Shown here in pieces: positions 385-55,229 of a DNA stretch of 64,000 nt (positions are counted from its first letter, which is position 1; each line of letters opens with the position of its first letter). The DNA is taken from positions 97,413-161,412 of the IMG/VR virus record IMGVR_UViG_3300035498_000621, one strand, 5' to 3'. Both the position numbers and the translations under genes were made by a program. Source of the DNA: a virus. Its lineage: Duplodnaviria > Caudoviricetes. Below the pieces are notes generated by a model. It ran no database searches. It was not told the origin of the DNA and was given only the letters and a program-made list of their open reading frames with translations.

Positions 385-696
385 TTATTTCTTAATTCTT
401 CGGAGTAAAATTCCTCCTTTTTTAAATACAGGCTCTCCTTGTGGAGCTTCTTGCTCTTGAGTAGCTGCCTGTTGTACGATCTCTGCTAGTCCTTGACATA
501 CTTGCATTGCCATTTGGCAATCTCCTGATTGTAGTGCTTGCATAGCGCCTTGAGCAAGCATAATTAGAGGATTTTGTCCTTCAGCAGGTTGCTATTCTTC
601 ACCTGCTGGCATTTCCTCTTCAGGTGCTGGAGCTTCTTGTTCAATAGAACCTCCAGTTTGAAATTTTTTGATTGAATTTTTAGGTATAAATTTCAT
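385..696 (-). CDS. small acidic Gln/Ala-rich protein (103 aa, 1 in-frame TAG); probable internal virion protein
   Basis: MKFIPKNSIKKFQTGG...VFKKGGILLRRIKK; TAA stop; xxGG motifs at both ends. Confidence 0.75.
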
Positions 697-792
697 ATTA
701 AATTAATTTAATTTAGATGTTATTAATAATGGTAAATTTACAAATATTATATGATTTGTCAAAAAACTATTCAATATTAAAAATATTATAAT

Positions 793-1356
793 TTATGATG
801 GACTATCTACATATTCAGCAGGACGTTCATCCTAAATTTTTATACATTTAAACATATATTTACCAAGAGCTTTAAAATCTTTATCATCTTGTGATTCTTG
901 AGCTTTTTTAGCTTTTTTTATAAGAACTTTTGTATTTGCTCTACTAAAAATACGTTCTCCTCCCCATAATTGATACTATTCTGAACCATCTTGAAAAAGA
1001 ACTTTCATTATCGGACCTTCGTCTGAATCATCAATTTCAAGCTCATCTCCTTTAGATATTCCAGAGTTTGCATTTACTTCTAATACATATGCAACATCAT
1101 CACAATCTACTAAAGTTTCATCTTTAGCTTTTCTTGTAGCTACTTTCATTACTTCATAATCTTCATTAATAAATACTTGATCAAGATTTATTAAAGTATC
1201 TTTCATAGTCATAGCTACTGTTTTTGGAGGATCGAAAAAGAAAAGCATACCTTCATCTTTTGGAAGATTAGTTACTCCTTTTAACCCTTGAAATAATTCT
1301 TCTTCTGTTCTAGCTTCTTGAACAGTATATGTTTTTCCAGCTATTTTAATTATCAT
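793..1356 (-). CDS. DUF192-like protein with C-terminal GGERIFS domain (187 aa)
   Basis: GLKGVTNLPKDEGMLFFF...MKDT..LD.VF...YVLEVNA matches the DUF192 pattern; frame continues through TAG at 976 to TAA at 793. Confidence 0.75.
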
Positions 1357-2276
1357 GGTTGAGTGAAAACAAATTTAATTGGAACATTTTCTTCAATTAC
1401 AGCTGTATCAACTGGAACTTTTGGTTCATTTGATACAACATTCTATGGTGCATTTCCTTGTTCAATTGAAGCGTCTGTTTCTTTAAAATTAACTGGATAT
1501 CCTTGTCTAGTAAATGAATGATCTTTTACAAATCCAACTTTGCCATTATACCATAAATCTGTAGAATCATTAGCAACTATTGGAATATTAAATGGAGTTG
1601 CTCCAGCAAATATTTCACCAGCAGCATTACCAATAGCTGGCGCTGTGTAATTTAAAACTGGCCCAACAACATATTTCCTGCCTAAATTTGTAGCTCCTAA
1701 TGTTATACCAACAGTTGTTTTAGGGTATTTTTTTACTAATCCAACTGTTCTTTTTATTAATGATGGTTTTTTATTTTTTGTAGTATCATTATCATTTTTT
1801 GGAGGCTATGCACCAGCAGTAGTTGTTCCAGTAGTAGCTGTTGTAGTCGTAGCATCTGCAGCGGTTCCTGTAGCGGCCCCTGCAGCTGTTCCAGTCGTAG
1901 CACCAGTAGCTGTACCTGCGGCTGTACCAGTAGATGCACCTGCGGCTGTTTTCTTTTTTCCAGAAGCTTTTTTTGCAAATAATACTGGTGGCATTGATCT
2001 AGCTGGATAAGAAGTAACATCTGAAGACATAAACTGTCCTCTAGGCACTTCTTCAATTTCAGATTCTTGAAATCTTGGAGATACTGCATCTGATAAATAT
2101 CCTATTCCATTTGAAATTCCTTGTCTAACAAAATTTCCAGTATCTCTTAAACCATTTGCAATTGCATCTTTATTATTTATAATTCCTAAACTAGCTAATG
2201 TTGCTCCAGTAGCTAAAGCTCCATATGTTAATAATTCTCCAGTAATTGGATTAAATAAAAGCGCGGGAAAAGCCAT
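1353..2276 (-). CDS. putative cargo/ejection protein with hydrophobic segments and Thr/Ala/Gly-rich linker (307 aa)
   Basis: Read-through of TAG at 1806 gives a TGA that overlaps the next ATG (ATGA). Confidence 0.7.
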
Positions 2277-2279
2277 ATA

Positions 2280-4430
2280 TTATAGTAATTTATTTGTATT
2301 ATCAATTGTATTATTAAGAATCTCTTCTACTAAAAGTTTACCTGCTTCTATAGCAGCTTTATCTGAACCGTCTTTAGCTAATTCTTCTAATTTTTTAGTA
2401 ACTTCAAGTCTAAATATAATTTCTTCACGTTCTATTTCAGCTTGTTGTTCTAATTCTCCACCTTCTTTTTCAGCTACAACAGGTATCCCTTTTTTAGTTA
2501 AATTATCTGCATTCTCCATATGATGAAGTCTAGCATGAAGTGCTCCTTCAGGAATTACATTAAATGAACCACCCTCTTTAAATTCAGGTATTTCATCTTC
2601 TGGTTCCATTGCCATTATAATTGAATTAATATTTAATGTTCCTCCTTTTTTAAAACCTTCTGTTGCATCTTCTGGTTCTTCTGCTATTAATATAGAATTA
2701 TTAATATTTAATGAACCACCATCTTTAAATTTTTTAGCTTCATCAAGTTTATTTTTTCTTACATATTTCCAATAAGGATCACTTTTTATTAAATCCCATT
2801 CTTTTCTAAATTCTTTAGCGTTGTCAGAATAGTACCAATTTACTTCCATTTGATGATTTGGATGATTACTTGATTTCATATATTCAATTTCATCAGTATT
2901 AGGATTTTGAGCAACAGAATTAGCATGCCAACGATTATCATCCTAATTAAACGTAAACATACCTTTTACAATAGCTTCTGCAAAATTCTTTGGGCGACCA
3001 TTAAATTCCCAATAATCTCTTACTCTAAAATCTTTATCACTTTTCTAATAATCAGGAAGTGAATTTAAATATGATGTAAATTGAAAATCTTCTATAGTTC
3101 CACCTTTTTGATATTTTTCTTTTCTTTTAGATATATTATATTGATTTGCTATTTTTTTAGCTTGTAAAACCATACCATGTTTTCCTCTAGAAAGATATGG
3201 ATTTAATCCTCCTGATAATTTAAGACTTCTTCTAGTTCCATTTATATAAGACATTGAATTTCGTAATGCATTTTGCGTAGTAGCTAAATTATTTATTTGA
3301 CCTAATGTATACATCTAGTTACTTGCATCAGATATTTTATCCTATAAATCATCAGTTTGTCCAGTTAATCTACCAATTAATCCAACTTTTTTACCAGAAT
3401 ATTTAACAGCATCATCAATAGTTTTATTAGACGCAGTATATGAAGCTCCAATATTAGTAAATACATCTTCATCTTTAGTAATAGTATTTAATTTAGTACC
3501 TCCAAATCCATTAATTGCACCAATATTCCAATTAAAGAAATTACTTCCTAATACTGCATCAGTAGCAGTTACGCCATCAGTTCCGCCTCCTAATGCATTT
3601 AATCCTTTTCCAAGAAATTCCGCTAATTGCATAGAACCACCAACTACCATTCCAACTGGTCCAAATGCATAAGCGGCACTTTTAATAGCATCATATCCAG
3701 CATCCATAGTTTTGGTAGTATCTCCATACTAACCTTCATATTCAGTTTTTTCTGGTAAAAAATTTCCAGCAATATCAGCAACAGAACCAGCAATTGCAAA
3801 TGCATTTCCTGTTTTAGCTCGACCTAAACTTTTAAGTTTATCTGGATCTGTAATCTTTTTTTTAGCAGCATCAATTGCTTTAAGACTTTTAACAGAATTC
3901 GCAATTCTACCAGTATTTTCGCTTACTGAAGATACAGTCTATGCAGCTTTACCTCCAAGCTAAGAAGTTAATTGATTTCCTATTTTCGTTGCACTATCTA
4001 AAATTTGCTTTTGATAGTCTATATTTTCCCCAGTTAAACTTGAAATATCAATATCATCTTCTGTTTTTGTTTGATATGGTGTAAGAAAAGAAGTAGAAGG
4101 CATAGAATCATTCATCATATTCTATCCTAAATATTGTGCTCTTATATCATTACTATTCTATAATGCCATACCTGTTTTAAAATGCATATCACTCAAATCT
4201 GACTAAATACTATTTCCAAATTGTTGAGCAACATTATCATAATTAAACTACTATTGTATTGGCCATGAATCTAAATTTGGAATATCTAACTAAGACTAAA
4301 AATTATAAGAATTATTTAAATAATTGTTAAATAAATTATTCCAATAATCATATTTGCTGCCTGAGCTCTATTGATCGCTCAGGTCAGCAAATGAATAATT
4401 TTTAAAATTTATGTTACTGTCTAAACTCAT
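2280..4430 (-). CDS. putative virion cargo protein (716 aa) with Gly-rich hydrophobic segments and repeated (F/Y)xxGG motifs
   Basis: ORFs 3342-3707, 3045-3314 and 2280-2879 share one frame from ATG 4430; position just after the muzzle-like gene. Confidence 0.7.
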
Positions 4431-4432
4431 TT

Positions 4433-7400
4433 TTATGCATAGCTTGCAGAATATAATGTTTTAATAGCATTAATTATTGCTAAATCTTCACCACTATATC
4501 TGATTCTAATTTTAATAAATTTATCTTTTAATTTTACTTCTTTATTATTTTTATCAGAAATATTCCACTAAACAATATTTCTTTCCCAATCATCAGGAAG
4601 ATTAATAGTTTTTATATTTCCATCTTCATCATAAAGATCTTTAGGAGGGCTAAATAAATTACATTCAGACGGAACTAATTTCTTTTGTTTATTACCATAA
4701 TAATTAGTCCAATCTTCTTGTTTTTCATTTTTCTATACAAGATTAATTGGATTTATTTGTACATCCCATCTATCTTCTTTATAATGCATATTTCCTCTTA
4801 TTCGACCACCTTTTTTAAAATCTCTAATATCTACAGCTTTAGCGTGATTCCAAATTCTATATTCATTTAAATTTTTATATCGTACAATTTCTGCTCCTGC
4901 TAATGCTGAGAAATTTTTATCATTATTTCCATAATTATTCTATTCTCCATAAAGATGATAAGAATCTTCAACATCATTAATTTTATCTTGTCTAGCATAA
5001 TATAAAGGAAATATTGTAGATTTTGCATAATAAGTATTATTATTTTCAATTTCTATAGGTGTGTCTTTACATTCACTATAATCATCATTATAAACAATAT
5101 CACTTCCATTATATGCATATAATTCTTTGGTTGCTTCTTGACGAATATACATATTTTTTTTGTCATTTGCAAAATCATAACAATCTCCAACAATTTCATA
5201 ATGAAAAGATTCTGGAGAAGCATTATTGCTTATAATCTAAAGATTATCAAATATTTTATGAATTTGAGGATTTTCAGCAACAACAAATTCAAATTCAAAT
5301 GGATGTTGTTTTCCATACCAATATGTTGGAGCAATTTCATCAGCAATATCAATAATTCCTGCCTATCCATGCTTCCAAAAATCAGTAGTAAGAAATTGCT
5401 AATTTGATTTAGGAATTACAGCAATAACTGAATCATAATATCCACTATCAACATAAATTCTATTCGTATTACTTTTACCATATGCTTCAACTAATGATAA
5501 TGGAGTATCAGTATCATAAGATATTTGAATATTTACTCTTACATTTAAAAGAATAACTATTTTATCAGAATTTTTTTGTTCGTTTAATCTAATTTTACAA
5601 CCACGTTCATTAGTTTTTATTTTTCCAGTAGAATCATCAGTTTCATATATTTCAGCACAAATATCATCATATTCACCAGTAAATATTAAATATGGAGCAT
5701 CATATTTTTGTATTGTATTATTTCCCGATTCTTTATCATTAGTATCCACTTTATCGGAATCAATCAAATCAACATTTCCTAAATCAGTATCAATTGATGA
5801 ATCTATAGTAGGTATTTTTCTTAATGTAGAATTACTAATTGGATCTCCTTCATTTACAATTACAAAATTTTTATAATTTCCATAATTATCTCTTTTTAAA
5901 CTATATGTTTTTTTAATTTCAATACCATCACCTGTTGGTAAAGTTCTATTATCTAAATATAGTTTAGATTTCCAATTATTTCCAGTAATTACATTATCTT
6001 CAAGAGTAATTCCATCAGAAAAATTATTACCATGATGACTTACTCCAAGTTTAGCAATCCATTTAGAAGTATTTCTATCAAAACTAAAATACTAATTATA
6101 TATATTTTCAGAATAAGATGGAATCCAAGAATAAAAAGTTATCCATTTCGCTAATCTTTCATTATAACATAAATTCCAAACTTTTTCATTAAATCCATAT
6201 AAATTATCATAAAATGTAAACATCACATCATCTTTAAACCTATTATAATGCGCTTTTACATTTCTAATTCCAATTATTGGTGTAAGCTCTCTTTCAGTAA
6301 GAGATATATTATTATTTAAAAATTCCTATACTTTAAAATCAGATATAATTTCCATTGCAGTTCCATCTGTTCTCCAAATTTTCTTTCCAATTGTATCAAC
6401 ACCATATACAGCTTTTGGAGTTTTAATAATAGATTCTTTCCACTAACTTCCAAAAACATCAGAAAGCACCTTTGGATTTTCAGGAAGTACATTTGAAGTA
6501 TTAATATAAACATATCCTCCTGTACCTTGTCCAGCTACAGCTCTTTCATTTACATTAATTAATAATACTCCATGTTCGCATATACATAATAAATTACCTC
6601 GTAATTCTACTAATTTTGTAATAGATCCATATGTTTTAGGATAATCTCGATAATGCGTTCCCTAAAACACTCTAAATCCATTTTTAAATGCATCAGTTAC
6701 ATGAACATCTGAATATGCTATTCTATTTGTAAAATCATTTTTAATGGCAGGAACGTCTTGAACTTCAAAATTATATCTTTCAGAAACAGATTTTTCAAAT
6801 CCACTATTATGACATAATGCTTCAGGAACTTTATAAGCTCCATCTGGAGACATTGGTTGATATGGATAAAATCCTCTGTCATGCCCAGTTATTGCTGTTT
6901 CATCAGGAATTGAATCATCAATAGATCTAATATTTAAATTTTTAGTAGATCTAATTGTAATTGTTATCCACATTCCTAATTTAATAGCATTAACATCTCC
7001 AAGATTTATATCTTCAAATTTTTCTTTATTAACAACTTGATCATTAACTTCATAATTATCAGCCCAACAATCAGGATCTACAATTTTATCATTAGTTGGA
7101 GCAGATGGATCCTAGAAATTTCTATTTAATCTATGTGTAAATTGACAAATATAACAGTCTCCTCTATATAATATATTGTTAAGTTCTGTTTTATCATCTG
7201 TTGTTTCAAAATAATCATCATAAGATTTGCAAGGAATTCTTTCAGATATAGCATAAAATGAACTTTTATCATTATATCTAATTTTGAAATATGATTCTAA
7301 ATTAGATTCTGCGTATCCAGGAATTTTTATATCAATTAATTTACCACTATAAATATATCCCTTAGTACCTAAATATGGACCATATGAACCTCTTACAAGA

Positions 7401-10093
7401 TTTGTAGCATCTGTAATTTTATTTTCTTTTTCAAAATACTCAAATCTATAAGCTTCTTCTGCTTCTCCCGCTCTTGCAGAATATAATGATTCATTTATTG
7501 AAACAAGTTTTGTATTGTCTTCAAGACCTATAATTTTAGTAGCATATAAATTAGAATTAGAAGGAGGATCAAATGAATTTCCTGACATGTAGAAATTTCT
7601 TTCATCTTGAGTAAGATAATTCTAACTTGGCTAAAAATCAGATTCTTGTATTATAAAAGATTCTCCAGTAAATAATGAATTATAATACGGATAATTTACA
7701 TCATATTCTGGACAAATAGCACCTTCATTTCTAACTGAATTTGTATTATTAAATTTGTACAATCTGCTATCAAAATCATGTGTTAAAATTTTTGAATTGT
7801 CTAAAAAACTTTCAGATACAAATTCATCTTTTCCAGATGGTATTAAAGGCGTTTTACTTTCTTTATCAATACCTATAGTATAAGCCTAACAATAAATAGT
7901 TGGGATTCTTTTCTATCTTACAAAGAAAAATCCTTTAATATTTAATGTATTTTTAATATAATCAAGAACCTCATCAGTTGTTTCAATTTTAATTCCAAAT
8001 ACCTATTGTGCAGAAGATTTATTAGAATTATTCCAATTTAACTAAATAACTCCTTTGCTATTTTCAAATTGATGTGAAGATGACCTAAAGTCATTTTTTT
8101 CGCAATTTTTATATGAATCAACATCAGATATTATTTTATAAGTATCTTCTTCTGTCATAATATAATTTCTGGTTTTTCCATCTTGCTAATACATTGGAAT
8201 TTTTGAATATTCTGTATTATTAGTTACATTTTCAGTTCCACGTATATTAAATACTGGAGATAAAGTATTATCAGATAAAATATAAACTATTCCTAATCTA
8301 TATATTTCATGATTCCAATATCCTGTCTAATTATAAATATAATTAGAATCATAATATCCTTTAACCGTACTACTTATATTATAATCTTGATCAATTTGAA
8401 CTTCATAATCAACATTACTTAACTAAGGAAAAAATCTTAATGATAAATCAGTTAATTCTTTATATGGAATATCTGGTTTATGAATATGCCCAATAAATAA
8501 CATATTCTAACAACTAGCCTAAGTTTCAATTGAATCTGCTACTAAATAATATGGATTAATTTCTGTTAAAGGTATATCTGTTGTATTTTCATATCCAGTT
8601 ATAACAATATTACATTTAAAATTATTATTTACAAGAAATTTCTATTCAATTTTTTTAGCAGTAACAGTAGCATTTTCTAAAATATCACTAGTTGCTTTAG
8701 TATAATATACAGTTACATACTAATATGCACTGTCTATATTTGATAATAAAAACTAAACATTTTTATGTGAATTTTCATCTCTAAATCCAGTTCTACAAGA
8801 ACCAGGATCTCCACCGATAAATACAGATACTAATCCAGATTCACATACAAAATCTGTTTCATTACCATCTGCATCTGCATATTTAAAATAGAAATGATAA
8901 TTACCAACTGATAACTATCCTCCATAATTTACTCCATAAAATTTTAATTTTGGAATTTCTATAACTCTTTTATAAAGAGATGTATCAATATCAAATTGAG
9001 AACCCTAATCATATATATTAGTATCATTATCACCTTTTCTATCAACAATCTAATATTGATTTCTTTCAGTAGCACTAAATCTTGAATTAATTAATTTAGG
9101 CTAATTACTTCCATCATTTAAAATAAGATTTACAGAACCATCATAAGAATACTATGGTAAAATATCAACTGGATGATTAAGATCACATTTTAATTCATCG
9201 GTTTCAAAATCTGCTAATTCTCCAGCTTCCATTAATACAGGATCATCTTGATCTTTTGGAATATTTTGCCATGTATTACCATAATTATTTTTAATCCAAT
9301 TTAAAGCTTCTTCATTAGTTGTAACATTTTCTGCTTTAATATTTAATTCATCAAGTAATTCACATGGAGTAAATAATCTATTTTTATAATAATACATTGT
9401 TTGAGTTAATCTATAATTTCTAAAAGGATTATACTCATAAACTAAATTTCCTTTGCTTGGTAAAAGTTTAGCAATTACTCCAAAATTTATTTGTTCTTCT
9501 AAAGCAGAATTAAAACTTATATTTTTAGTTTTATAATCTGATGAACTATATATATATTCTTTATCATCACCATCAATTATAAATGAATTTCCAGCCTAAA
9601 CATAATCACCAAAATCAACAGATAAATCAGAATCTTCAAGTTCTTCATCTACAGAAGGAAGATTTGGATTTGAAGGCTAAGTATCTTTATCTGTATTATC
9701 AGTAGAATTATTAGATGAATTATCAGAAGAATCATCTTTACCTAAACTATCTTTTCCAGATGATGCTTCACTTGATTCTTCTGCTTTATTATCATTTTTA
9801 TCTACATTACTTAAATCAGTATTTTCTAAAGTTGTATCTTTATCTGTATTATCAGTAGAATTATTAGTATTTGATGAACCAGAAGATTTTTCATCAGTAT
9901 CTACAGCAAGATTATTATCTAATTTATCTACATTACTTAAATCAGTATCTGTAGAATTATCCGTTGATTCATTTTCATTTGATGATCCTGTATCATCTGT
10001 ATCTACTTTTAAACTTGAATCAATACGATCTATATCACTTAAATCAGTATTTTCAAGTTCACTTCCATCGATAGTATTCTAAATTTCTGACAT
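4433..10093 (-). CDS. large tail stabilization/muzzle-like protein (about 1886 aa) with acidic repetitive N-terminus
   Basis: Five ORF-track fragments are in frame with ATG 10093; YHFYFKYADADGNET motif and C-terminal KIRIRYSG; crAss gene order. Confidence 0.7.
9680..10060 (-). repeat. intragenic repeats encoding TDLS(N/D)(V/I)D(K/R) x3 and NSTDNTDKDT x2
   Basis: tatctacattacttaaatcagta at about 9800 and 9925; gtatctttatctgtattatcagtagaattattag at about 9681 and 9834. Confidence 0.85.
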
Positions 10094-10110: not shown

Positions 10111-13100
10111 TTAAACTCTAGTATTATATCCAGAACCACCATAACTATTATTTCCACTAACCAATTTAAGCGAACTATTACCATTATATAAACCATAATG
10201 TCCACTACCGTCACCAGCTTTATAAGTATAACTCCATTGCTAACTTAACAATTTAGCTTCATCAAAACATAATTCATTATTTTTTAGCATTAATGCATCA
10301 TATATAGGAAAAGTTACACCATCATTATTTTTATCACTAAAAGTTATAATAACTTTATCATCATCATTAATTTTTAAAGAAGATGTTTTATATAATTTTG
10401 AATTTGAATTTAATATTTCAAAATCTTTAGTATCACTATTATATATATATATTTTACCAGATGTTTTAACTTTTCCTGCTTTTTCTTCAGAATTATTAAT
10501 ATTAAATCGCCAATAAGAATTAATGCTATTCTTTTTAGCTTCAGTATATATATCATACAAATTACTAGTATCTAATTTAAATGTATGATTAAATACATAA
10601 TTTTGAGCAGAAAGAGATGTTTTCTTATGTAATAAATTATTATAATTAATATTTTTAAAATTATTATTAATTATATTACATAATCCATTTAAAGTACAAT
10701 TCTATTTAGATTCAAAATAATATGGTTTTAAATATAAAACAGTATCACATGTATTATTATTACTAGTAAATTTAGGCGTATAATGTATATTAAATGACCA
10801 TGTTTCTGTATATGGATCAACATAATTAATATTATCAACTATGTATTTATCAATATTAGCAGCACTAGTATTTACAGTATAAATCTAAGATAAAAATGTT
10901 AATATAAAATTAGATAATTTAGTTGGAGTATATATATTATCTCCATCACTATTTGTATTAGATGAACTAATACTTTCATTTTTAAATATTCCATCAGAAT
11001 GACAATTAATAGGAATATAATGATTTTCTGATGATTTTACCCAAATTTCAAATCTTTTTTGCATATTAGCATCTGTACTAGTTTCGGATTTTATATATAC
11101 ACCTTTAGGAGAAAATCCATCAGCATTACCTTCACTATGATAAAGTATTTGCATACATCCACTAGTTCCAAGCATCCATTGATTTAAATAATTTGTATAA
11201 GGAGGAGTATCATCCCAATAATTAGATCTAGAAAATTCATCAGATGGATTCCAATCATCTTTTGTTGAAATATATTTATTAATAGATGCTAATGTATTTT
11301 CTGTTTCTTTAGAACTACTTCCAGATATATGTTGATAAAAACCAAATCCGAATGGATCACCTGCACCTATATCTCTATGTCTTTCTGTAAAGAAATATTT
11401 TAAAAGTCCAGATTTACTATTAAATCCATTACTAACTAAATCAGAATCTGTATAAATTATAGGTCTAATTTCCTAACCAACATTTATAGATTTTAATACT
11501 AATCTATCAGCATTAATTTTTGAAATGATAGCTCCTTTAATTGCAAGCTATAATTTCTAATTAGATATATTAAGAGCACTTATATAAAATGAATCTTTAC
11601 AATTTTCATCATAACTTGAATTTCCATTTATTAAATTATTAATTTTTTTACCTAATGTTTTAATATCAATATTTTTATCAAAATATGGTTTAACTAATTC
11701 TATTGAGTCATTTGTATATTTAGATGATTTTTCATAAATTACTGAATCATCAGATAATGATATAGATTTAGAATTATTAAGAGTTTCTTCAATTTGTTCA
11801 TTTGCTGTTTTTATAAAATCTATATGATAATTAGTTAATCCAAATAATTTATTATATTTTGGAACAATATCAACATTAAATGTTACATTATTTATTGATG
11901 TAGTAATATCATTAAAATCATCTTGCCCATAATTTACAGTTGTTATATTAAATCCTAATGAATCCTAACATGAATTTAATTCAGAATCTACCATTAAATT
12001 AGGAGTATAAGTATCTAAAGTTGCAATAATATTATCATTACAATTATTAGTTATATCAAATCCTACATAATTATCTAATTTTAATGTATTAAAATCAAGT
12101 ATATTTCCTTTAATAAATTCATCGTTAAATTGTCCAGTTGTATATAACCAACCATATGTATGTAAATAATATGGTTTATTAGATTCATCTTTTTTACTAT
12201 AATGTATGCATAAATTAACTAAATATAAATAATTTTTTAATATTGGCTATCCAGTTATTCTTGAATCACTTACAGCTGAATTTTTTAATCTAATTATTTC
12301 TTGAAAATTTCCAGAATATGATTCTTTTCCAGAAATAGTATATTGTGATAATTGATAATCAAAAATTTCTCTACCTGAATAATAATCAGTATTTGAAGTT
12401 TTGATTACTCCTTTATTATAATTCTAAATAATACTATCGAATGGAATAAAAGTTAAAACAATTTTATCAATTTTTTCTTTCATTGCAGGATATACAGATA
12501 ATCCCCAATTAAAATAAAATGATGATTCTTGAATATAATATCTCCATTCAGTTATTTTTGTCGCACTAGAATTAATTCCAGATCCAATTTCTGCAAAATT
12601 AATCTAACCACTACTAGCTAAATATGGAATTTTACCAAATTTCATAGCTGGAATAAGAGTATAATCCCATATATAATTTTTTAATTCATCGTTATTAGAT
12701 GATGGATATGTAAATTTACCAACAATAGTTGAAATTGATTTATCAGTTCCATCATTTTTTCTATCTTCAATATTTTCCTAGGTTATAGTATATGCTGAAT
12801 TTTCAAGTACATCTGTAGTAATCCCTTCGGATATTTGTGAAGATGAAATAATTGAATATTTTGGATTAATTGATTTATGATTACTAGTCCAATTTAAATA
12901 AAATTTAATTTGAACATCATTTTTTTCTATATTATCAGTATCAATATAATTAGATTTTATAATATCAGCATCCCATGAAACAGAAAATGAATCAATTACT
13001 TTGAGTTCAAAAAGTAAAGCTAATTCTCCAGATACTTTACTTTTAAAAATATTATATGCAGATGATACCAATGATCTATAACTATCTACTTTATTAGATA

Positions 13101-13809
13101 TTGTTTCATCATCTGTTATATCATAATCAGATATATAATAATTTCCTTTATAATTATTACCTTTATCATCTGTTACATTTATTTCATAATCCCATTTTAA
13201 TGAATCATCAAGATATGTTATTTTACCATCATCTCCTAAACATACTACATGAATAGTTATATTTTTTGGATCATTATCAATTTTAGGTTCTTTAGAAGTA
13301 GAAGGTAAATCTGAAATACACTAAAATTTTACATTATTTTTAATACCATTATTAGTAGAATATATTTTATATTTATCTCCAGGATTTAATATAAAATCAT
13401 CATCGTATAGTTTTAATTTTACAATAACATTTTTTATTTCATTATTATTTTCATTAATAAAACTTGAATTAGAAATTATTGGATTAAGATCCGATACTTC
13501 TTCTGTAGAAATATTTCTTTCTGGAGATGGAAAACTACCAATCTATGTTTTATTTATTAATGGATTATATGAAACAATATAAATAATTCCTCCTAATTCT
13601 GCAGTTCCAATTGGTACATAACCTTCAGGAAGATATGCAGTTTCAACTCTACCATTACCCATATCATTCTATAATACATATTCATTACCATTATATGTAA
13701 TTATAGTACCATTTAAACAATTTGTTAATACATTATTTGGAGTTGATAATGGATTTAAATCCATTACTAATCCTTCAGCAAAAGTATTACTTGCTTCGCT
13801 TCTTTTCAT
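10111..13809 (-). CDS. tail stabilization/muzzle-family protein (1232 aa)
   Basis: N-terminus NTFAEGLVMDLNP...LTNCLNGT...NDMGN...G..P.G..E.GGIIYIVSYNP...IGSFPSP is the crAss Tstab N-terminal signature; three ORF fragments in frame. Confidence 0.75.
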
Positions 13810-24216: not shown

Positions 24217-24827
24217 TATTTAATATTAGCATATTCAGTTTTTGCATCAAATGATGGACAATCCTTATTAGCAAATTCTCTATGTCCATGAATAGTAGCT
24301 TTTGGATATTTAGATTTAAGCTATTTCAATAATTTAATTAAAGATTCTTTTTGTTTATCAGTTCTTGTGTCTTTAGCTTTTTTATTTGTACTATCCATGC
24401 CACCAATATAACATATTCCAATTGATTTACTATTATGTCCTGTACAATGAGCACCAATTACATTTTCCTATCTTCCAACATTAATTGAACCATCACGATA
24501 AATTACATAATGATATCCAATATCTTTAAAACCTCTAGCTAAATGCCATTCTCTAATTTGAGAAACTGTATAGTCTTTACCTTCTGGAGTAGCTGAACAA
24601 TGAATTATAATTTCAGTAATATTACGAGTATTAGAATTTGCATTTAAACCAAGTGCTTCCCAAGTTTTATCTCCTACTATTCCATCAGCAATTAATCCAT
24701 TGGTTTTCTAAAATTCTTTTACAGCTTCTTCAGTAACTTGTCCAAAAATGCCATCTGCTATACAATTTAATTTTTTCTAAAGAGTTTTTACATCCTCTCC
24801 TTTACTTCCAAGTTTAATAGTAGTCAT
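24216..24827 (-). CDS. endolysin: PG_binding_1 domain plus N-acetylmuramoyl-L-alanine amidase (T7 lysozyme-like), 203 aa, 4 TAGs
   Basis: GSKGEDVKTLQ...DGIFG..T..AVKEFQ..NGL.ADGIVG; IIIHCSAT, DIGYHYVI, GAHC.GHN, GHREF..KDCPSFD; absent from the ORF track. Confidence 0.92.
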
Positions 24828-42900: not shown

Positions 42901-43195
42901 GACAATTACATGATTTATTTATTGGATAGCACAAATCAGGTTCTCTTTTATTTAACTACCCATACCATTGTAGATGATATTTTTTATTTCTTATTTCTTC
43001 TCTAAGATATTTAATAAATTTATCATCATTTAATTCTGCATAAATAACTGTAGGAACGTAATATCCTTGAGGATATAAAGTTACACTATATCCTTCTGGA
43101 TCTAATTTCTAGACTTCAATTCTACCAATATATTCTTTTTTATAAAAATCCTTGATAAATTCTAGTGTCGCTTGTTCTATATCCTGTATTGACAT
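42890..43195 (-). CDS. hypothetical protein (101 aa)
   Basis: Open under code 15; overlaps both terminase and portal ends. Confidence 0.65.
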
Positions 43196-46042: not shown

Positions 46043-46058
46043 TTATTAAAATTTAAAA

Positions 46059-46877
46059 TTATTTTTTCTTTGGTAATTCCCATAGCATATTACGATTATT
46101 TATCTATCTAAGACTATCAATATTTTGATTTTTTATATATGTATTATATAAATTTTCATATTCTTCTTGAGTCATAGGATTAGAAAACTCATAATCATCA
46201 TAACCACTTTTTTGTTTATAATATCCTGATATAGGAAGCGACTACCAATATTTAACAAATTCTTCTGTTGGAACATCTGCATTACCAATATATTTATTTA
46301 AATCTTTATTATTAAATAATTCGTCATTAGCAAAATAACTAAAATTACTCTATCCGTTTCCAGAGAATAATGGCCTTTCAGATGTATATTCATATATTTG
46401 TCCATTACCAAAATCTAATACATCTGAAAAAGTTGGTGTATTAATATCATTATCTCTAGTACCAATTGGATATGTAACTTTATAACGAGTTACTTTATTG
46501 TTTAGTGTAAGTGGTCCTGCTGGATTTTTATCTTTAATTATTTTTTTTTTGATAATATTTAAATTATTAATACTTTTATTATTAAGTTCTAATGACCGTA
46601 TTAAATCAGTAACATCTCTAGTTTGTTGCAGTATAGATTCTATATTTATATTAGATGTATTATTAAGATTTATTTTATTTTTTTTAATTTCATCTAATTG
46701 CGCATTATTATATTCATTAGTTTCATTACGATAATTATTTAATCGTTTTGCTATTTCATAAGAATTTGTACTATCTAATAAATGACTAGGATATTCATGA
46801 TTAATAACATCAGAAGTATTTAAACCATCTTGTCCTTTATTGATTAATTCTTTTTTTTTTTTGAAATGGATAACCAT
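46059..46877 (-). CDS. Asn-rich hypothetical protein; possibly the frameshifted C-terminus of 46837-47265
   Basis: Open under code 15 to TAA at 46059; begins within an A12 tract. Confidence 0.55.
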
Positions 46878-47265
46878 TTTCGGCTTTTCTCATTTTACGA
46901 CCACATTTAAATGCATCAACGACATTAGTAGGAGCTTCTCCACCACCTTGCATTTTTTGTTTTTTCATGCATTTTTTACATAGTCTGCCACCAACTTTAA
47001 AGTATTTAGGTTCTTGACCTTCTGGGCAAAGACCTTTAAGATTACGAATATAATTTAGTTTAGCACCAAATCTAGCAGCTTGCACTTGCTGTTGTTGCAT
47101 TTGTTGAGCAACAGCTTGAATCATTTGAGCTAACTATGCTGCTTGTTGGTCTCCTTGCTAAGCAGCTTGCATAATTTGCTAAATTTGTTGAGTAGCCTGT
47201 TGATCGCCTTGCATAGCTGCTTGTACTAATTGAATAATTTGTTGTTGTAATTGTTGTTCGTCCAT
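46837..47265 (-). CDS. Gln-rich protein with QAAxQGDQQA repeats and a Cys-containing basic C-terminus (142 aa)
   Basis: MDEQQLQQQIIQLVQAAMQGDQQA...; 3 TAGs lie in poly-Gln context. Confidence 0.8.
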
Positions 47266-47266
47266 A

Positions 47267-47503
47267 TTATTTATCAATTAAAATAAGATCCTTTGTTGAA
47301 AAAATAGCTTCTTGTAAAGCTCCTTCTGTAGTAAACCATCTACATTTAATTCCAATAAGAACTGATTTTTTATCATTTCTTTTAGAATCATGCTTAAATA
47401 TCGAAGTTTCTTTACGTACAACTATCATAACAGGTTTATTAGGTATATCCTACCTAAGTTGTACTAAATCTCCCGGATTAAAATAAGTATTATTGTCTTC
47501 CAT
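47267..47503 (-). CDS. small YodC/DUF2158-like protein (78 aa)
   Basis: F.PGDLVQL....P.M.V....C.WF..G.LQEA.F...DL. Confidence 0.65.
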
Positions 47504-48092
47504 TTTCTTTTATATTATTAAAACGTTGTTCAAGTTCTTCATTAATTACTGCAATAACCTAAGTTTCAGCAATGCACATAAGTCCTTGCTTGTAAAATGG
47601 AACAGGCATAGCAGTTTCTTTTCTATACATAATTACATCACCTGGAACAATATATTTAACTTCTGGGCCGACTTCCTAAACAGCACCAGTAATAATCATT
47701 TGTTCCATTTGTTCAATTTTCCCGTTATCCATATTTTTAAATTCTGGAGCCATACCACCTGTATCAATAATAAGACCAGATTCATTATAACGGATTCGCT
47801 GAAAAGGATTTTGTTTAAAAGGCTTAATTAGAATACGATTAAACATAGGTTTAATTTCAATTAAATCCATGTTAGCTCCCAAACTTTCAGAAGCTTCTTG
47901 CAAATCATTTACATGTTTTTCTAGTTTATCAGCATACTCATCTACTTGAGCATTAAATTTTCTAGCTCGTTCTTTTTCAAACATATCTTCAATTTTATTT
48001 TCACTCATATTCATCATAGTTCCTTCAAAACCAACCATATTTTGTGCGAGTTTTTCCTCTTCAGTCAATAACATTCTTTGATTATTCGCCAT
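47490..48092 (-). CDS. GroES/Cpn10-like co-chaperonin with N-terminal helical extension (200 aa)
   Basis: IKPMFNRILIK...ESGLII...G.V.EVGP....PGD.I.Y...IAE.QVIAVI. Confidence 0.75.
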
Positions 48093-49748: not shown

Positions 49749-49789
49749 TATGATATTACAAATATAATTATTAAATTTGAATGTTCAAA
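49749..49789. promoter_or_regulatory. overlapping divergent Bacteroidota sigma promoters
   Basis: Minus: TTTG(49789-86)-N19-TATATTTG(49766-59), exact. Plus: TATG(49749-52)-N19-TAAATTTG(49772-79), one mismatch at -33. Confidence 0.65.
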
Positions 49790-49812
49790 ACAAAAATATA
49801 TTTTAACATTAC

Positions 49813-50175
49813 ATGAATAAACATAATTTCAATTTAAGTGACTTTTCCAATATAGTTAATTAGCGTTCGGAAAAGAAAATTTAGCTTATTCCAAAATTTA
49901 CTTTAAATTTTAATGAAACACAGCCTATTTATAAAAAAGGTGGAGAAATTAAAATTAAAAAGAAAAATATTGGATCTTTTACTAAATATTGTGGAGGAAA
50001 TGTAACTTCAGAATGTATTAGAAGAGGTAAAAATAGCCCAGATCCTAAAATAAGAAAAAAAGCTACTTTTGCAGCTAATGTTAGAACATGGAAACATAAG
50101 AACGGAGGAGTTTTTAAAAATTATAATATAGATAAACTTAATTATCTAATTAATAGTTTGAAAAATTATGTATGA
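49813..50175 (+). CDS. small basic conserved crAss protein (120 aa)
   Basis: YKKGGEIKIKKKN.G.FTKYCGG.VTSECI..GKNSPDP.IRK.ATFAAN.R.WKHKNGG; missing from the ORF track. Confidence 0.8.
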
Positions 50176-51322
50176 TAATTTTTTTACAATTTACGAAGCA
50201 ACAGAACCGCCTCCAATAAAAAGAAGAACTGATTCTAAAGATAAAAATGATTCTGAAGAAAAATTAATAAATGATTTAATTGATTATTCAATATTATCAA
50301 CTTCAGATGATTTAGATAAAAATGATTTAGATGAACCAAATATTTTTTCTGATTCCGATGATTAGAATTTATTTACATTTCAAACAGATGAATTACCAGA
50401 AATAACTCAATAGCCAAATAATTCTTTAGCTAATAGAGTTGTAAATTTAGCTAGAAGTTTTGTTGGTGGAAAATATATATATGGAGGTAGTTCTCCTAAA
50501 CAAGGATTTGATTGTTCTGGTTTAATAAGTTGGGCGTATAAATAGAATAATATAAATTTAGGAAGATCTACATATGAAATATTTAAAGCTGGAAAAGAAG
50601 TAAAATTGTCTGATGCAAAAATTGGAGATATTATATGTACTCCTGGTTCTGGAAAAAGCGGAAGACATGTTAAAATGATTAGTAAAATTGATGATGAAGG
50701 AATTCATGTTATTGAAGCAAGAGGAAAAGATGATGGTATTGTAGAAGACTTATTAACAAATACAAGTAATATTATAACTATTAGAAGAATTATTGATGAT
50801 AATTAGTAGGTAGCTCCTACTAAAATAAATGGTAAATTTTCTAATAAATAGAGTTTTATTTAGTCATTAACTTCTTCTTATAGACGAGCTTTATTAAATA
50901 ATGACATGGATCCTGATTGGGCACCAATGTTAGTAACATCAGCTTCTATTGAATCCGATTGGGGTGCTAGTCCTAGTGGTTCATATAATTATGGCGGAGT
51001 AAAAGTAACAGATGCTCAAATTAAAAATGGAGTATCATATACAACAAGAAGCACAGTAGATTATATTCCAGGACAAGGAAATAAACGTAGAGATTAGCCA
51101 TTTAGAAATTTTAAATCAGTTGATGATTATTGTAATTATATGGTTAAATGGTTAAAATCTAGTGGAAGATATGGAAATATTTTTAATAAATATTCTGCAA
51201 ATTAGCCTATGCAAGCATGGGAAAATATATTAAGAGCAGGATATGGTGGCGGAAGTGATTCAAACATAAAAAAATATATGGAATGGATGAAATCTCGTTA
51301 CAATTCAATAAAGCAAGCATGA
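50168..51322 (+). CDS. NlpC/P60 peptidase fused to GH73 glucosaminidase-like domain (384 aa)
   Basis: Y.YGG..P..GFDCSGL..WAY...GDII...HV; then IESDWG....YNYGGVK...FRNF.SVDDY...AGY. Confidence 0.85.
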
Positions 51323-51546
51323 GTTGGTTAAAAGAAAGTAATAGGCAAAAACATTTATTGTGCGCAATTCCTATTGGTTTAATATTTACAATTTTAGCAG
51401 TATTAGGGTGTGCATTTGGTATGGAATTCAAAGATACACAATACGGCAATGAATTCGATTGGTTAGATATTGCAGCAACTATGATAGGAGGATTAATAGG
51501 TCAAATTTTATAGATAATTATAATATTATTAATTATATGGCTGTAA
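51319..51546 (+). CDS. small membrane protein (75 aa)
   Basis: MSWLKESNR.KH...MEFKD...FDWLD.AAT.IGG; ATGA overlap. Confidence 0.75.
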
Positions 51547-53495
51547 AAGTTTACGGAAAAGATATAACCTCAATTAAAACTCCTTTAAAAATTCATTTAC
51601 CTGACGGTACAATAATGAATTTTAAAAATTCTGAAGAAGCATAGAATTGGTTTAATGCTAGCAATTATGCCGATACTTCTAGTTTTTAGGATTATGAAAC
51701 TAATAATTTAGTTACACCTGAAGCTAAAGAAATTGTTGTAATACCAACTTCTCAAAATAAAGGAATTGATACTTATATTGGAGCTAATTATAATCCAGAA
51801 TTTAATAAAGTATATAATAAAATGGGAATGAATCCAGTCAATTGGACTGATTTTATTCCTAAATCTTATTGGGATTCTGATGTTCATAAAAATATAAAAG
51901 AAGGATTTGATATAGCTTCTGTAGTTCCTGGATCAATGATTTTTTCTGCTGCATATACTGTTCCAGAATTAGCTGGAGCATTAAATTTAAAATTTGCATA
52001 TGATGGTGCTAAAAAATTAATAAGTCCAGAAGGAGTATAGAAAACATATAATAAATTTAAAGAAGGAGATTATAAAGGAGGAGCTATAAGTGGTGCTGGA
52101 GATTTATTTGATGTAGCTATGACATTGCCAGTTTTAAATACAGTTACACGAGCATCGTATAATGCAGCTAAACCTACTATAATAGGATTTAAAATGAATA
52201 ATGAACTTAATAAAACTCCTATTATAGAAAATGAAACTCTTCCATTAAATATAGGATGGGGGCCTAAATAGACAATTGCTGTTACTCATAAATCTAATCA
52301 TGCTGCACCACCACCTTTATATAATGAAAAACGTTGGGATGTTGTTAACGAAGGAGCTAATCCATTTGGAATATGGTGGTAGGGTAAATGGGGAATTCCA
52401 CGTACTATTGAAACAGGTAATACTGTTAAGCAAGCACAAAAAGCACTTAATGCTAGAAATCTTTTTGCTAAACGACCATATACTCATTCTGGTGAATTAA
52501 CATTAGAAAAACCAATAGTTACTGTTGGTGATGTTCCAAATCGTTCTACTTTATCTTATTAGGCAGAATAGTTAGGAGCTGATGGAATTATTTATAATAA
52601 TGTATATGATAATGGATTTAATAATAATTAGGTAATATTAAGTTTTAAACGTCCTGATAATAATAGTATTAATTCTGAAGTTAAAAATTCATTTTCTATT
52701 AATTCAGATAATAATTCTTATTATTGGAATGGTCCAATGACTACCTGGGATAATTTTAATATTCCTCAATATAAACAAGATTTATTAACCGGTAAATAGG
52801 AATTTATTGATTGGATGAATAATCCAGAATATATTAAGGCAATGTATGCTAATAAAGCAGAAGCAGAAAATATGGGATTATTTTATACGCCAATAATCGA
52901 AAAACCTGAATATTAGCAAGCTGTAACTAATTTTAAACCTACTTTACATACTAGTTTAAATGGAGCAAATGGACAAATAGATTTACAAAATGATATTCCA
53001 GGAGTTATACATTTATCTAGTAAAATGAATATGTCTGCTACTCCAGTAACAAGACATGAACTTGCACATAGTGCTCGTTTAGCATATCCTACTACTGGAG
53101 ATATAAATACTAGAAAAAAAGAACTTGAATATTTACGATTTAAAAATTCACAAGTATTTAATGATTCGAAAGCTGATTTAACTAATGTTGCTGGAAATAA
53201 TTTTTATGATTTTAGTTCAACAGGTTACCCACATGAGGCTGTAACAAATGCTAGAGATTTAGGAGCAAAATATGGAATTAAAGTTGGACAAGAATATCCT
53301 GGCGACTAGTAGGTATTAGATTTATTAGAAACAATGTATAATAATCAATAGCTAGGAAGTTTTGGTAGTAAATTTATTGAAGCTTTGAGAACAGATAAAG
53401 AACATCTTAAATATGTATGGAAAGCATTGAATGGAACTTAGTGGAGCCTTCTTCCTTTTATAATAGGTGGTACAATAATAAATAATAATAAATAA
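51537..53495 (+). CDS. modular effector-like protein: shared N-domain, ART-PolyVal-like domain, zincin metallopeptidase (652 aa)
   Basis: THKS...GIWW...LTLEKP...LGADGIIYNNVYD; HELAH plus downstream HEAVTNAR. Confidence 0.75.
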
Positions 53496-53504
53496 TAATA
53501 AATA

Positions 53505-54497
53505 ATGAATACTATTGAACGATTTAAAGAAGGAAAAAAAGTAAAAACTAAATATGGCGAATATTCTGTCGGCTCTTTTATAAAAGTAAAAGGAGAAAAT
53601 TATTGGAGAAGAATAAATTCTGATGGAAAAGCTACTATAGTTGAAAAAGGAAAATAGAATGATAACGAATTGCCTTCAAAAATAAGAAATGAGCTTATAA
53701 AATCTTCAGGAGGAGTTCATGGTAAAGATGGAAATCATTGGACTAATAAATTAGTAAATACTTATTCTTTTATAACTAATATTTCTGGAGGGTGGATTTT
53801 AAATAAAATATTAGATGCTACAGGAATTAATAGTAAAAAATAGAATCTTATTTTAAGAAATACAGAAGGAGAAGGAAATGGCTGGGATTTATTATCAATA
53901 GCTACTGGTGCTTTTAGAAATAATTATTATGATGGAAAATTACATGATAATAAAGATAAAAAAAATAATGGAAGAATAAATGCACAAAATATATATTCTA
54001 ATAATTTCTATGAAGATAATAGAAATTTAATTAATTTATATACTCAGCAAAATGATGCTGGATTTGAGTCAAGCAAATTAGGATTAGGATTATATAAAAA
54101 TCATCCAGAATATTCTAAATATCCTGCTTATGAAGGTAATTTTTATGGAATAGATACTCTTTATTTACCATCTAGTTCAAAACAATATTTTAAAAATAAT
54201 TTAAATTCTAATTTTAATCAAGATCATGATGTTTTAATAAAAGGGATGAAAAGTTTTGAAGGATTAGATGATGTAAGAAATTATAATATGACACCTAAAT
54301 ATATAGATGGTAAATATTATGTTGATATGGAAGATGTATGGAATTTAGATAAAGCTGGATTTGATTCTAGAAATTATCCATTTATTCTTAATTAGAGAAT
54401 TCCTGTAATATTTACAAATGATTAGGAAAAATTAAATATTGTTCCTGAATTAAGTAATTGGTTTGATATTCCAAGTTCATGGAGTATAAAAAAATAA
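53505..54497 (+). CDS. hypothetical protein (330 aa) with N-terminal RFKEG motif
   Basis: Continuous frame under code 15; C-terminal DDVRNY...EDVWNL. Confidence 0.75.
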
Positions 54498-54504
54498 ATA
54501 AATA

Positions 54505-54750
54505 ATGGTTTCTTTAGAAATAAGAAAAGCTAATAGAAATCTTCTTCGATCTAGAAAAAATAAATGTATTTTATGTGGAGAAGATACTTATTGTTGTTTA
54601 GAAATGCATCATATTAAAAATAAAGAATATAATATTTCTAAAGCTGTATAGAATTTATCAACAGAAAAATTTGAAAAAGAATTAGATAAGTGTATATGTA
54701 TATGTAGTAATTGTCATCATAAAATACATAATAATATAATTTAGTTATGA
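54505..54750 (+). CDS. small HNH endonuclease (81 aa)
   Basis: CILCG...CLEMHH...KC.CICSNCHHKIH. Confidence 0.85.
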
Positions 54751-55229
54751 ATTTAATTTCAAAAATTAATCGTAAAATAAATAAATTTCAAAATGGCGGA
54801 ACTCCTAATTATTTTAAAATATATGGAATGAATCCAAACAAATTTACTTCTATGTTTTAGGCATTAATAAATAGGGGTTTATCTAATCAAGTTGCTTTTG
54901 AAATAACTTGGCAAAGTAATAAAGAAGTTCCAAAAGGATTTTATAGTTTTGGATCTAGATTTAATAATGTTGATGATTGGGCTGATAATGTTGTAAATCA
55001 TTAGCTAAATAGAAATATTTATAAAAATGCAAAAAATGCTACTAACTTTCACGAATATCGTAAAGCTACATTACCATATAATAAAGAACCAGGATATACT
55101 GAATGGCTTCAAACTGGAAGAGATTCTGGTAAAGGATTTATAAATTCATATATAGAATAGAATAATCTTGGTGAACCAGTAGCAATGAATTCTAATAATG
55201 AAAATTTAGATGATATATTTAATGGATAA
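54747..55229 (+). CDS. hypothetical protein, possibly divergent lysozyme-like fold (160 aa)
   Basis: N-terminal KFQNGG; AL.NRGLS.QVA..I..QS.KE helix and YN...Y; fold call is weak. Confidence 0.6.

What the first reader, a model, noticed from the sequence alone, without database searches (positions are those of the whole stretch)
385..55229. Shared K/R-(F/Y/M/H)-x-x-G-G tag on many unrelated non-shell proteins: candidate capsid-loading or maturation-cleavage signal
Seen: KKFQTGG and VFKKGG (385-696); KYQKGG, KKFKDGG, GFKKGG, EFKEGG (2280-4430); KYFKVGG, KMQGGG plus weaker AARFG, FKCG, KAENG (46837-47265) and KGQDG (46059-46877); IYKKGG and KHKNGG (49813); RFKEG (53505); KFQNGG (54747). The motif is often near termini or domain borders, and I did not notice it in the portal, ring or fibre proteins. 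Inference: a recognition signal for head packaging or for a maturation protease (analogous to adenovirus (M/L/I)xGG cleavage sites), linking minus-strand cargo genes with the plus-strand island.
Basis: partly seen in the sequence, partly recalled or inferred. Interest (0 to 1): 0.8.

Follow-up and report, generated by a model that had tools for sequence, protein, structure and literature searches.

The report
Gly-Gly address tag on crassvirus cargo
A short peptide ending in Gly-Gly marks the starts, joints and ends of the proteins this crAss-like gut phage most likely packs in its head and injects. It is real, kept across crassviruses and apparently undescribed, but whether it is a docking handle or a cutting site is still untested.

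Summary
All 16 strings exist. The tight core [FY][KQ]xGG occurs 11 times in the window against 0.8 in shuffles. Genome-wide, all 12 copies lie in the cargo/late region and none in the first 94 kb.

The stronger support is comparative. In 80 crassvirus loci the core is about 24-fold denser in genes downstream of the muzzle gene than upstream of it (9-fold after dereplication). An extended box, [IV][KR]K[FYW]QxGG, is almost exclusively N-terminal: 23 of 25 matches fall in the first 28 residues, in five families with no other detectable similarity.

The tag links the minus-strand cargo block to the plus-strand island. Gene 49813-50175 is homologous to crAss001 cargo protein gp45 (E 1e-19), and gene 54747-55229 carries a full N-terminal box.

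Loading signal versus cleavage site is unresolved. Against cleavage:
- one copy opens the cryo-EM-ordered, continuous portal-bound segment of gp45;
- one copy lies inside a zinc ribbon;
- Pro sometimes follows GG;
- none of the three protease families searched (C39, C48, S78) matches.

My best reading is an uncut docking handle and module seam. I found no paper describing it, although this scan has noted the same tag in at least 8 other crassvirus genomes.

The parts
649..672 (-). N-terminal box IKKFQTGG (residues 9-16) of the 103-aa protein 385-696
   Evidence: Translation checked. F12, Q13, G15 and G16 are invariant or nearly so in the 12-member family alignment A4. Matrix score 22.3 bits.
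388..426 (-). C-terminal box (FKKGG followed by a hydrophobic-basic tail) of the 103-aa protein
   Evidence: 10 of 11 matches to the C-box pattern lie in the last 25 residues of a protein. AF2 models it as a small beta-hairpin with GG as the turn, at low confidence.
2568..2582 (-). FKEGG opening the conserved C-terminal domain of the 716-aa protein 2280-4430 (C1-position cargo protein)
   Evidence: G16 and G17 are invariant in alignment A3 of 15 phages. Homology with G003 and L003 orthologs begins about 3 residues before this copy.
2640..2654 (-). FKKGG, tandem repeat copy in the 716-aa protein
   Evidence: About 25-aa repeat unit: motif, beta-strand-like stretch, acidic/Pro linker.
2715..2729 (-). 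FKDGG, tandem repeat copy in the 716-aa protein
3099..3113 (-). YQKGG, internal copy at a module start in the 716-aa protein
   Evidence: Similar copies in L015 and L017 orthologs.
46969..47028 (-). Four-Cys zinc ribbon (CPxG...CxxC) with FKVGG (46987-47001) as its hairpin, in the 146-aa protein 46837-47277, a paralog of the 103-aa protein
   Evidence: Translation. The same element is conserved in G002 (226 aa) and G003 (590 aa). It aligns by eye with the C-box of the 103-aa family minus the cysteines.
46821..46844 (-). Variant N-terminal box INKGQDGL (residues 12-19) of the 272-aa protein 46059-46877
   Evidence: The variant [IVL]xK[GA]QxG is N-terminal in 8 of 17 matches. Five of its 9 internal matches come directly after a GG.
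49930..49944 (+). YKKGG, first bracket of the module that the 120-aa island protein 49813-50175 shares with crAss001 gp45
   Evidence: BLASTP against gp45 residues 342-439: 45% identity, E 1.4e-19. Aligns with gp45 residues 370-374.
50095..50109 (+). HKNGG, second bracket of the same module
   Evidence: Aligns with gp45 residues 424-428, where the cryo-EM-ordered portal-bound segment starts.
54777..54800 (+). N-terminal box INKFQNGG (residues 11-18) of the 160-aa island protein 54747-55229
   Evidence: Best matrix score in the whole genome, 23.1 bits. The protein has no homolog in the relatives examined.
4805..4819 (-). FKKGG in the 1886-aa protein 4433-10093; doubtful copy
   Evidence: Present but not found at that place in the L002 and L003 orthologs.
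55994..56008 (+). YKTGG in the 291-aa island protein 55244-56119; doubtful copy
   Evidence: Present. No relatives to test it against.
793..1356 (-). DUF192 protein lying between the C1-position gene and the 103-aa gene; a clade-specific neighbour, not a universal partner of the tag
   Evidence: Pfam PF02643, E 5.7e-20. Matched in all five relatives searched from this clade (G001-G005). Absent from crAss001, p-crAssphage, cr3_1 and IAS virus.
1..318 (-). First 106 residues of the 990-aa cargo-block protein. Its FKEGG copy (residue 431) and C-box-like end lie just outside the window.

Best explanation
The motif is a family of short peptide handles peculiar to the proteins that crassviruses carry inside the particle.

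Three forms exist:
- An N-terminus-specific box, [IV][KR]K[FYW]QxGG, followed by a Pro/Ala/Glu-rich flexible linker.
- Internal copies, aromatic-[KQ]-x-G-G followed by a beta-strand-like stretch, which sit at module joints.
- A C-terminal box, aromatic-[KR]-x-GG followed by a hydrophobic-basic tail.

I infer that they are uncut docking hairpins, with GG forming the turn. They would tether cargo modules to a common receptor inside the procapsid, most likely the portal wing or a neighbouring inner surface. That would load otherwise unrelated proteins into the head and keep them in position for ejection. The same peptide doubles as the seam at which modules are swapped between phages.

Shown: the motif's existence, its conservation, its restriction to cargo-block and island proteins, its N-terminal specificity, and its position at the start of the ordered portal-bound segment of crAss001 gp45.

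Inferred: binding, the partner, and that the tag is sufficient for loading.
For: - Enrichment and restriction to cargo-side genes.
- The extended box matches 25 times in 268,870 aa. Of these, 23 lie in the first 28 residues, in 5 families with no other similarity.
- A matrix trained only on relatives recovers the two N-terminal boxes of this genome.
- Conservation extends on both sides of GG for internal and C-terminal copies. That fits a folded hairpin or recognition element better than a one-sided protease site.
- In crAss001 the cryo-EM-ordered, portal-bound gp45 segment 425-552 begins at A425-F-G-G428 and contains two further GG copies. Another copy (559-563) follows its end (PMC10172136; numbering).
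- The N-terminal linker after the box is predicted disordered, and the C-box is modelled as a GG-turn hairpin (low confidence).
- One copy is the hairpin of a zinc ribbon.
- Gly codons vary, and the invariant Gln is once encoded by the recoded TAG, so selection acts on the peptide.
- Internal homology breakpoints between cargo proteins fall near the motif about 2.5 times more often than at random positions.
Against: - No partner has been identified, and no complex could be modelled here.
- AF2 confidence around the motif is low.
- The C-terminal domain of the 716-aa protein could not be linked to the gp45 portal-bound domain, either by profile or by fold. The portal argument therefore rests on crAss001 only.
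- The strict N-terminal position and the better-conserved upstream side of the N-box are also what a removable leader would show.
- HEXXH (zincin-like) sites exist in one cargo-block protein and two island proteins.
- The loci compared are related to each other, so the counts are not independent events.
Confidence: 0.45

Rival explanations
1. Maturation cleavage signal. A protease, either a phage zincin-like domain carried as cargo or a host enzyme, cuts after GG. This removes the N-terminal leader and the C-terminal tail and releases modules, as in T4 internal proteins or adenovirus precursors. The leader may first serve as the loading signal.
For: - The N-box is strictly N-terminal, short, and conserved mainly on its upstream side.
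- Modules are bracketed by the motif in gp45 and in the 120-aa protein.
- Five of 9 internal matches of the variant box come directly after a GG, as if it were meant to become a new N-terminus.
- HEXXH sites occur in the 816-aa cargo-block protein and in 51459-53495 and 59443-60174.
- The p-crAssphage cargo protein annotated as fused to a zincin protease itself starts with a box.
Against: - crAss001 gp45 is modelled as continuous across three GG copies (PMC10172136).
- Pro follows GG in several orthologs.
- One copy lies inside a zinc ribbon.
- No C39, C48 or S78 peptidase family matches.
- The register differs from the adenovirus and double-glycine consensus.
- The crAss001 giant cargo proteins run at full size on gels (PMC6235969).
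Confidence: 0.25
2. Passive joint. The motif is only a flexible hinge or beta-turn inherited with small mobile modules, partly a relic of a zinc-ribbon hairpin. It lets beads-on-a-string cargo unfold and thread through portal and tail, and it marks where modules recombine. There is no common binding partner and no cutting.
For: - Homology breakpoints cluster at the motif.
- Tandem repeat units occur in 2280-4430.
- The C-box of the 103-aa family aligns with the zinc-ribbon hairpin of its paralog.
- The motif region has low predicted order.
Against: A mere hinge would not need an invariant aromatic, Gln and basic residues. It also would not be confined to the first 28 residues in five unrelated families.
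Confidence: 0.2
3. Basic DNA-contacting arms. The Lys/Arg-flanked hairpins bind the packaged genome and hold cargo against DNA.
For: Basic residues flank the motif on the N side in N-boxes and on the C side in C-boxes. Cargo lies next to DNA in crAss001 (PMC10172136).
Against: Internal copies are often preceded by acidic/Pro linkers and lack basic flanks. Nothing tested here bears directly on DNA binding.
Confidence: 0.05
4. Chance, or a composition effect of a Lys-rich, AT-rich genome.
For: The single-genome unbiased scan is not significant after correction.
Against: Shuffles, positional restriction, orthologous conservation, replication in G002, G003 and other families, and codon variation all argue against it.
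Confidence: 0.02

Closest known systems
Cargo protein 1 (gp45) of Bacteroides phage crAss001 (Bayfield et al. 2023, PMC10172136; PDB 7QOG, 7QOI, 7QOJ, 7QOL, 8CKB; Pfam PF25725)
   Same: - It sits at the same genome position, after the muzzle gene.
- It is a string of small modules, each started by a bulky-x-x-GG copy (residues 17, 260, 370, 424, 444, 559).
- The 120-aa island protein here is significantly homologous to gp45 residues 342-439.
   Different: - The paper does not mention the motif.
- PF25725 finds nothing in this genome.
- The 716-aa protein has no significant similarity to gp45.
- In this clade the tag is sharper and also sits on several other proteins.
Capsid targeting sequence of phage T4 internal proteins IPI-IPIII (from my own knowledge)
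   Same: A short N-terminal peptide shared by unrelated proteins that are packed in the head and injected.
   Different: - The T4 signal is cut off by the prohead protease after Glu.
- Here there is no prohead protease match, cutting is unproven, and copies also occur internally and at C-termini.
Adenovirus protease sites (M/I/L)XGG-X and African swine fever virus GG-X polyprotein sites (from my own knowledge)
   Same: A Gly-Gly pair preceded by a bulky residue, on several proteins of the virion interior.
   Different: - The register differs: the bulky residue is five positions before the putative cut, not four.
- No C48-type protease match; adenain (C5) was not searched.
- There is structural and sequence-context evidence against cutting at several copies.
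Double-glycine leaders of bacteriocins cut by C39 peptidase domains (from my own knowledge)
   Same: A short N-terminal leader ending in GG.
   Different: No C39 domain in the genome. The leader's pattern of hydrophobic positions differs. These proteins are not exported peptides.
Prp-cleaved N-terminal leader of capsid and scaffold proteins of Staphylococcus phage 80alpha, which mimics ribosomal protein L27 (from my own knowledge)
   Same: A conserved N-terminal leader of about 14 residues shared by different head proteins and recognised by one factor.
   Different: Different sequence and different host phylum. Cleavage is proven there and untested here.

Membership tests
crAss_CARG1 (Pfam PF25725, portal-bound domain of crAss001 gp45) | Match to the family model above its cut-off | tested here: not met
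   No match at E <= 1 anywhere in the 161-kb genome. A profile of the C-terminal domain (A3) against gp45 gives E 0.34.
crAss001 gp45 (cargo protein 1) homologs | Significant sequence similarity to gp45 | tested here: met
   Met only for the 120-aa protein 49813-50175 against gp45 residues 342-439: 45% identity, E 1.4e-19. The 716-aa protein is not similar.
crAss001 gp45 (cargo protein 1) homologs | Gene position directly after the muzzle / tail-stabilisation gene and before the RNA-polymerase-associated giant genes | tested here: met
   Gene order: muzzle 10111-13809, the 1886-aa protein, then 2280-4430, followed by the giant genes upstream of the window.
Adenovirus-type (M/I/L)XGG-X cleavage sites | Aliphatic residue four positions before the cut; an adenain or Ulp-like cysteine protease is encoded | tested here: not met
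   The fourth position is K or Q, and the bulky residue is at the fifth. No Peptidase_C48 match. Adenain (C5) itself was not searched.
Double-glycine leader / C39 system | A C39 peptidase domain is present | tested here: not met
   No PF03412 match at E <= 1.
T4-type capsid targeting sequence | The same short N-terminal peptide on unrelated head-internal proteins | tested here: met
   23 of 25 box matches lie within the first 28 residues, in 5 families without other similarity.
T4-type capsid targeting sequence | Removal by a prohead protease during maturation | not testable with these tools
   No Peptidase_S78 match. S77 was not searched. Needs virion mass spectrometry.
DUF192 (PF02643), for gene 793-1356 | Match above the Pfam cut-off | tested here: met
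   71.7 bits against a cut-off of 27, E 5.7e-20.
Zinc ribbon, for 46969-47028 | Two Cys pairs (CPxG and CxxC) flanking a beta-hairpin, conserved in orthologs | tested here: met
   The sequence shows four Cys. The same arrangement is present in G002 and G003. Metal binding was not tested.

The most novel reading that the evidence does not exclude
The boxes form an address code that defines the whole injected proteome of Crassvirales. N-boxes and C-boxes of successive cargo proteins pair with each other or with the portal, so that cargo is daisy-chained and leaves the particle in a fixed order. The hypervariable plus-strand island is a cassette of swappable, tag-addressed injected effectors.
Probability: 0.15. 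Interest if true: 0.85.

Novelty: new variant of a known kind. Interest (0 to 1): 0.62.

Why it matters
Crassviruses are the most abundant phages of the human gut, and how they choose which proteins to pack and inject is unknown. A sequence tag that marks cargo would allow three things:
- predicting the injected proteome from sequence alone, including hypervariable effector-like genes such as this plus-strand island;
- testing loading directly with tagged reporters in cultured phages such as crAss001;
- explaining how cargo modules are exchanged between phages.

If the tag is cut instead, it would reveal a maturation protease system in a group where none is known.

Tried and rejected
**Searches that gave nothing**
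- PHROGs and Pfam on all motif carriers found nothing except DUF192.
- Sequence and profile searches of the 716-aa protein and its C-terminal domain against the PDB and gp45 found no significant link.
- AF2 of the C-terminal domain (pLDDT 63) and of the 103-aa family (pLDDT 61) gave low confidence at the motif. Foldseek against the PDB found nothing.
- A single-protein search for muzzle relatives found none; an alignment was needed.
- Accession NC_024711 is not held; BK010471 was used instead.
- No band assignment for gp45 is recoverable from the held text of PMC6235969. The supplement of PMC10172136 has no peptide lists.

**Ideas rejected**
- DUF192 as the processing enzyme or partner. It is absent from four complete crassvirus genomes that still carry the motif.
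- A nucleotide-level signal, such as a translation start region or a recombination site. Codons vary, and copies are also internal and C-terminal.
- A simple excess of GG.
Full report
**What the window is.** Long ORFs open only when TAG is read as Gln. The window is the last 64 kb of a 161,412-bp virus record.

PHROGs identifies several structural and lysis genes on the minus strand:
- large terminase, 43140-45449
- portal, 40723-42900
- major capsid protein, 19359-20786
- tail proteins
- an amidase endolysin, 24216-24827

The 1232-aa protein 10111-13809 aligns with the crAss001 muzzle protein gp44. Downstream in the direction of transcription lie a 1886-aa protein, a 716-aa protein (2280-4430), a 307-aa protein, a DUF192 protein (793-1356) and a 103-aa protein (385-696). 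A 990-aa protein that runs out of the window, a 634-aa protein and the giant RNA-polymerase-associated proteins follow. This is the position of the cargo genes gp45-gp50 of crAss001 (PMC10172136). From 49813 a plus-strand island begins.

**Check of the observation.** All 16 strings exist. Because the pattern was chosen after looking, I scanned all four-residue gapped patterns. FKxGG ranks 8th of about 640,000, which alone does not survive correction.

The case therefore rests on other facts:
- All 12 tight copies in the genome lie at genome positions 94758-153531; the first 94 kb has none.
- The copies are conserved in relatives.
- Some loose matches are unrelated family motifs: NlpC/P60 in 50168-51322 (Pfam), the capsid protein's YEMGG, and the tail protein's YHQGG, each conserved within its own family.

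**Comparative evidence.** A muzzle alignment (A2) fetched 80 crassvirus loci. I chose the code for each locus by coding density.
- [FY][KQ]xGG occurs 5 times in 218,459 aa upstream of the muzzle gene (capsid and ring genes) and 111 times in 202,242 aa downstream.
- An N-terminal [FYM]xxGG occurs in 1 of 801 upstream proteins and 50 of 265 downstream proteins.
- After dereplication the figures are 3 in 51,171 aa vs 35 in 66,430 aa, and 0 of 197 vs 19 of 90.
- The loci are related to each other, so these are not independent events, but the effect holds in several clades and under both genetic codes.
- Whole-genome scans of G002 (complete) and G003 repeat the picture. Copies lie in the C1-position protein, the roughly 100-aa protein, the roughly 1000- to 1600-aa protein that follows it, a zinc-ribbon protein near the terminase, and plus-strand island proteins.
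- Other families carry it too. The giant p-crAssphage cargo protein annotated as fused to a zincin protease starts with a box. Its gp48 and cr3_1 gp20 carry aromatic-[RK]-C-G-G-basic repeats, including at the very C-terminus. IAS virus and crAss001 C1 proteins have bulky-x-x-GG at module starts.

**Anatomy.** Three forms emerge.
- The N-terminal form is [IV][KR]K[FYW]QxGG, followed by a Pro/Ala/Glu-rich stretch.
- Internal copies are followed by a strand-like x-hydrophobic-N-hydrophobic-I-P.
- The C-terminal form is PQGEPV-[FY][RK]xGG plus a hydrophobic-basic tail.

The extended N-box pattern matches 25 times in 268,870 aa. Of these, 23 are within the first 28 residues. Their carriers fall into five groups that share no similarity once the first 30 residues are removed: the roughly 100-aa family, the roughly 1500-aa family, the C1-position family, the C2-position family, and the 160-aa island protein 54747-55229.

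A matrix trained only on relatives scores 54747-55229 at 23.1 bits and 385-696 at 22.3 bits. Shuffled proteomes give 0.4 hits of 12 bits or more.

A variant, [IVL]xK[GA]QxG, is N-terminal in 8 of 17 matches, including 46059-46877. Five of its 9 internal matches come directly after a GG.

Gly codons vary among orthologs, and the invariant Gln is once encoded by TAG, so the selection is on the peptide.

The roughly 100-aa family is little more than an N-box, a linker, a two-helix core with an invariant Cys, a linker and a C-box. Its paralog 46837-47277 carries the same hairpin inside a four-Cys zinc ribbon.

**Link to known cargo and to the island.** The island's first gene (49813-50175) matches crAss001 gp45 residues 342-439 at 45% identity, E 1.4e-19. 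Both bracketing GG copies are conserved. Its orthologs, followed by the NlpC/P60 lysin, open the island in G002 and G003, whereas the rest of the island has no homologs there.

The 716-aa protein is a positional analog only. PF25725 and the profile and fold searches give no link to gp45.

**Cut or uncut.** The crAss001 atlas reports density for gp45 residues 425-552 on the portal wing, interdigitating with its SH3-like loops. By my numbering:
- that segment starts at A425-F-G-G428;
- it contains further GG copies at 431-435 and 444-448;
- it is followed by another copy at 559-563.

So one copy is part of an ordered, continuous, portal-bound structure. Together with the zinc-ribbon copy, Pro after GG in some orthologs and the absence of C39, C48 and S78 matches, this speaks against general cleavage.

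On the other side, the strict N-terminal position, the one-sided conservation of the N-box, the variant box directly after GG, and HEXXH sites in one cargo-block and two island proteins keep a removable leader possible.

DUF192 is not the common factor. It is absent from four complete genomes that still carry the motif.

Homology breakpoints between cargo proteins fall near the motif about 2.5 times more often than random positions do. This fits a module seam, although HSPs can extend into any conserved motif.

**Literature and earlier notes.** The crAss001 papers and a Crassvirales review do not describe the motif or any processing. Earlier notes of this scan report the same tag in at least 8 other crassvirus genomes and reach similar open conclusions. 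I used two of their leads, PF25725 and seam exchange, and tested both here.

**Verdict.** My best reading is an uncut docking handle and module seam (0.45). The rivals are a cleaved leader (0.25), a passive joint (0.2), DNA-contacting arms (0.05) and chance (0.02). The mechanism needs virion mass spectrometry and reporter loading tests.

Noticed in passing
L001:13830-14144 (IMG/VR relative): The invariant Gln of the N-terminal box is encoded by TAG in this relative. This gives direct support for TAG=Gln at a conserved position.
   Followed up: partly
window 793-1356: A DUF192 (PF02643) gene sits inside the cargo block. It was matched in all five relatives searched from this clade and is absent from crAss001, p-crAssphage, cr3_1 and IAS virus. 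Its role is unknown.
   Followed up: partly
window 51459-63121: Most plus-strand island proteins (678, 330, 160, 291, 1109, 243, 470 and 316 aa) have no homolog in the close relatives G002 and G003 and no Pfam hit. Two of them carry HEXXH. This is a hypervariable cassette behind a conserved pair of genes (gp45-fragment homolog plus NlpC/P60-glucosaminidase lysin).
   Followed up: partly
genome 68765-71215 (outside the window, 816-aa cargo-block protein): The HEXXH-bearing cargo-block protein itself begins with a weak bulky-x-x-GG copy at residue 9. The p-crAssphage protein annotated as fused to a zincin protease likewise begins with a clear box.
   Followed up: no
window 54505-54750: An 81-aa Cys/His-rich protein, HNH-like by eye, is similar to a 138-aa crAss001 ORF (5238-5654 of NC_049977; E 1e-11).
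   Followed up: no
window 47490-48092: A 200-aa protein with a weak GroES/Cpn10-like C-terminal half (PHROG 3188, E 3e-5; Pfam Cpn10 below its cut-off), conserved in G002 and G003.
   Followed up: no
window 26537-27499: A 320-aa protein with a Gly/Trp-rich stretch (MGWGGGGWGGFGG) near its N-terminus. It matches PHROG 16490, of unknown function.
   Followed up: no
crAss001 gp45 residues 254-343 (L004:31747-32016): The most widely conserved piece of C1 across crassvirus families starts right after the FAEGG copy. It is 61-74% identical in crAss002, cr8_1 and cr3_1.
   Followed up: no
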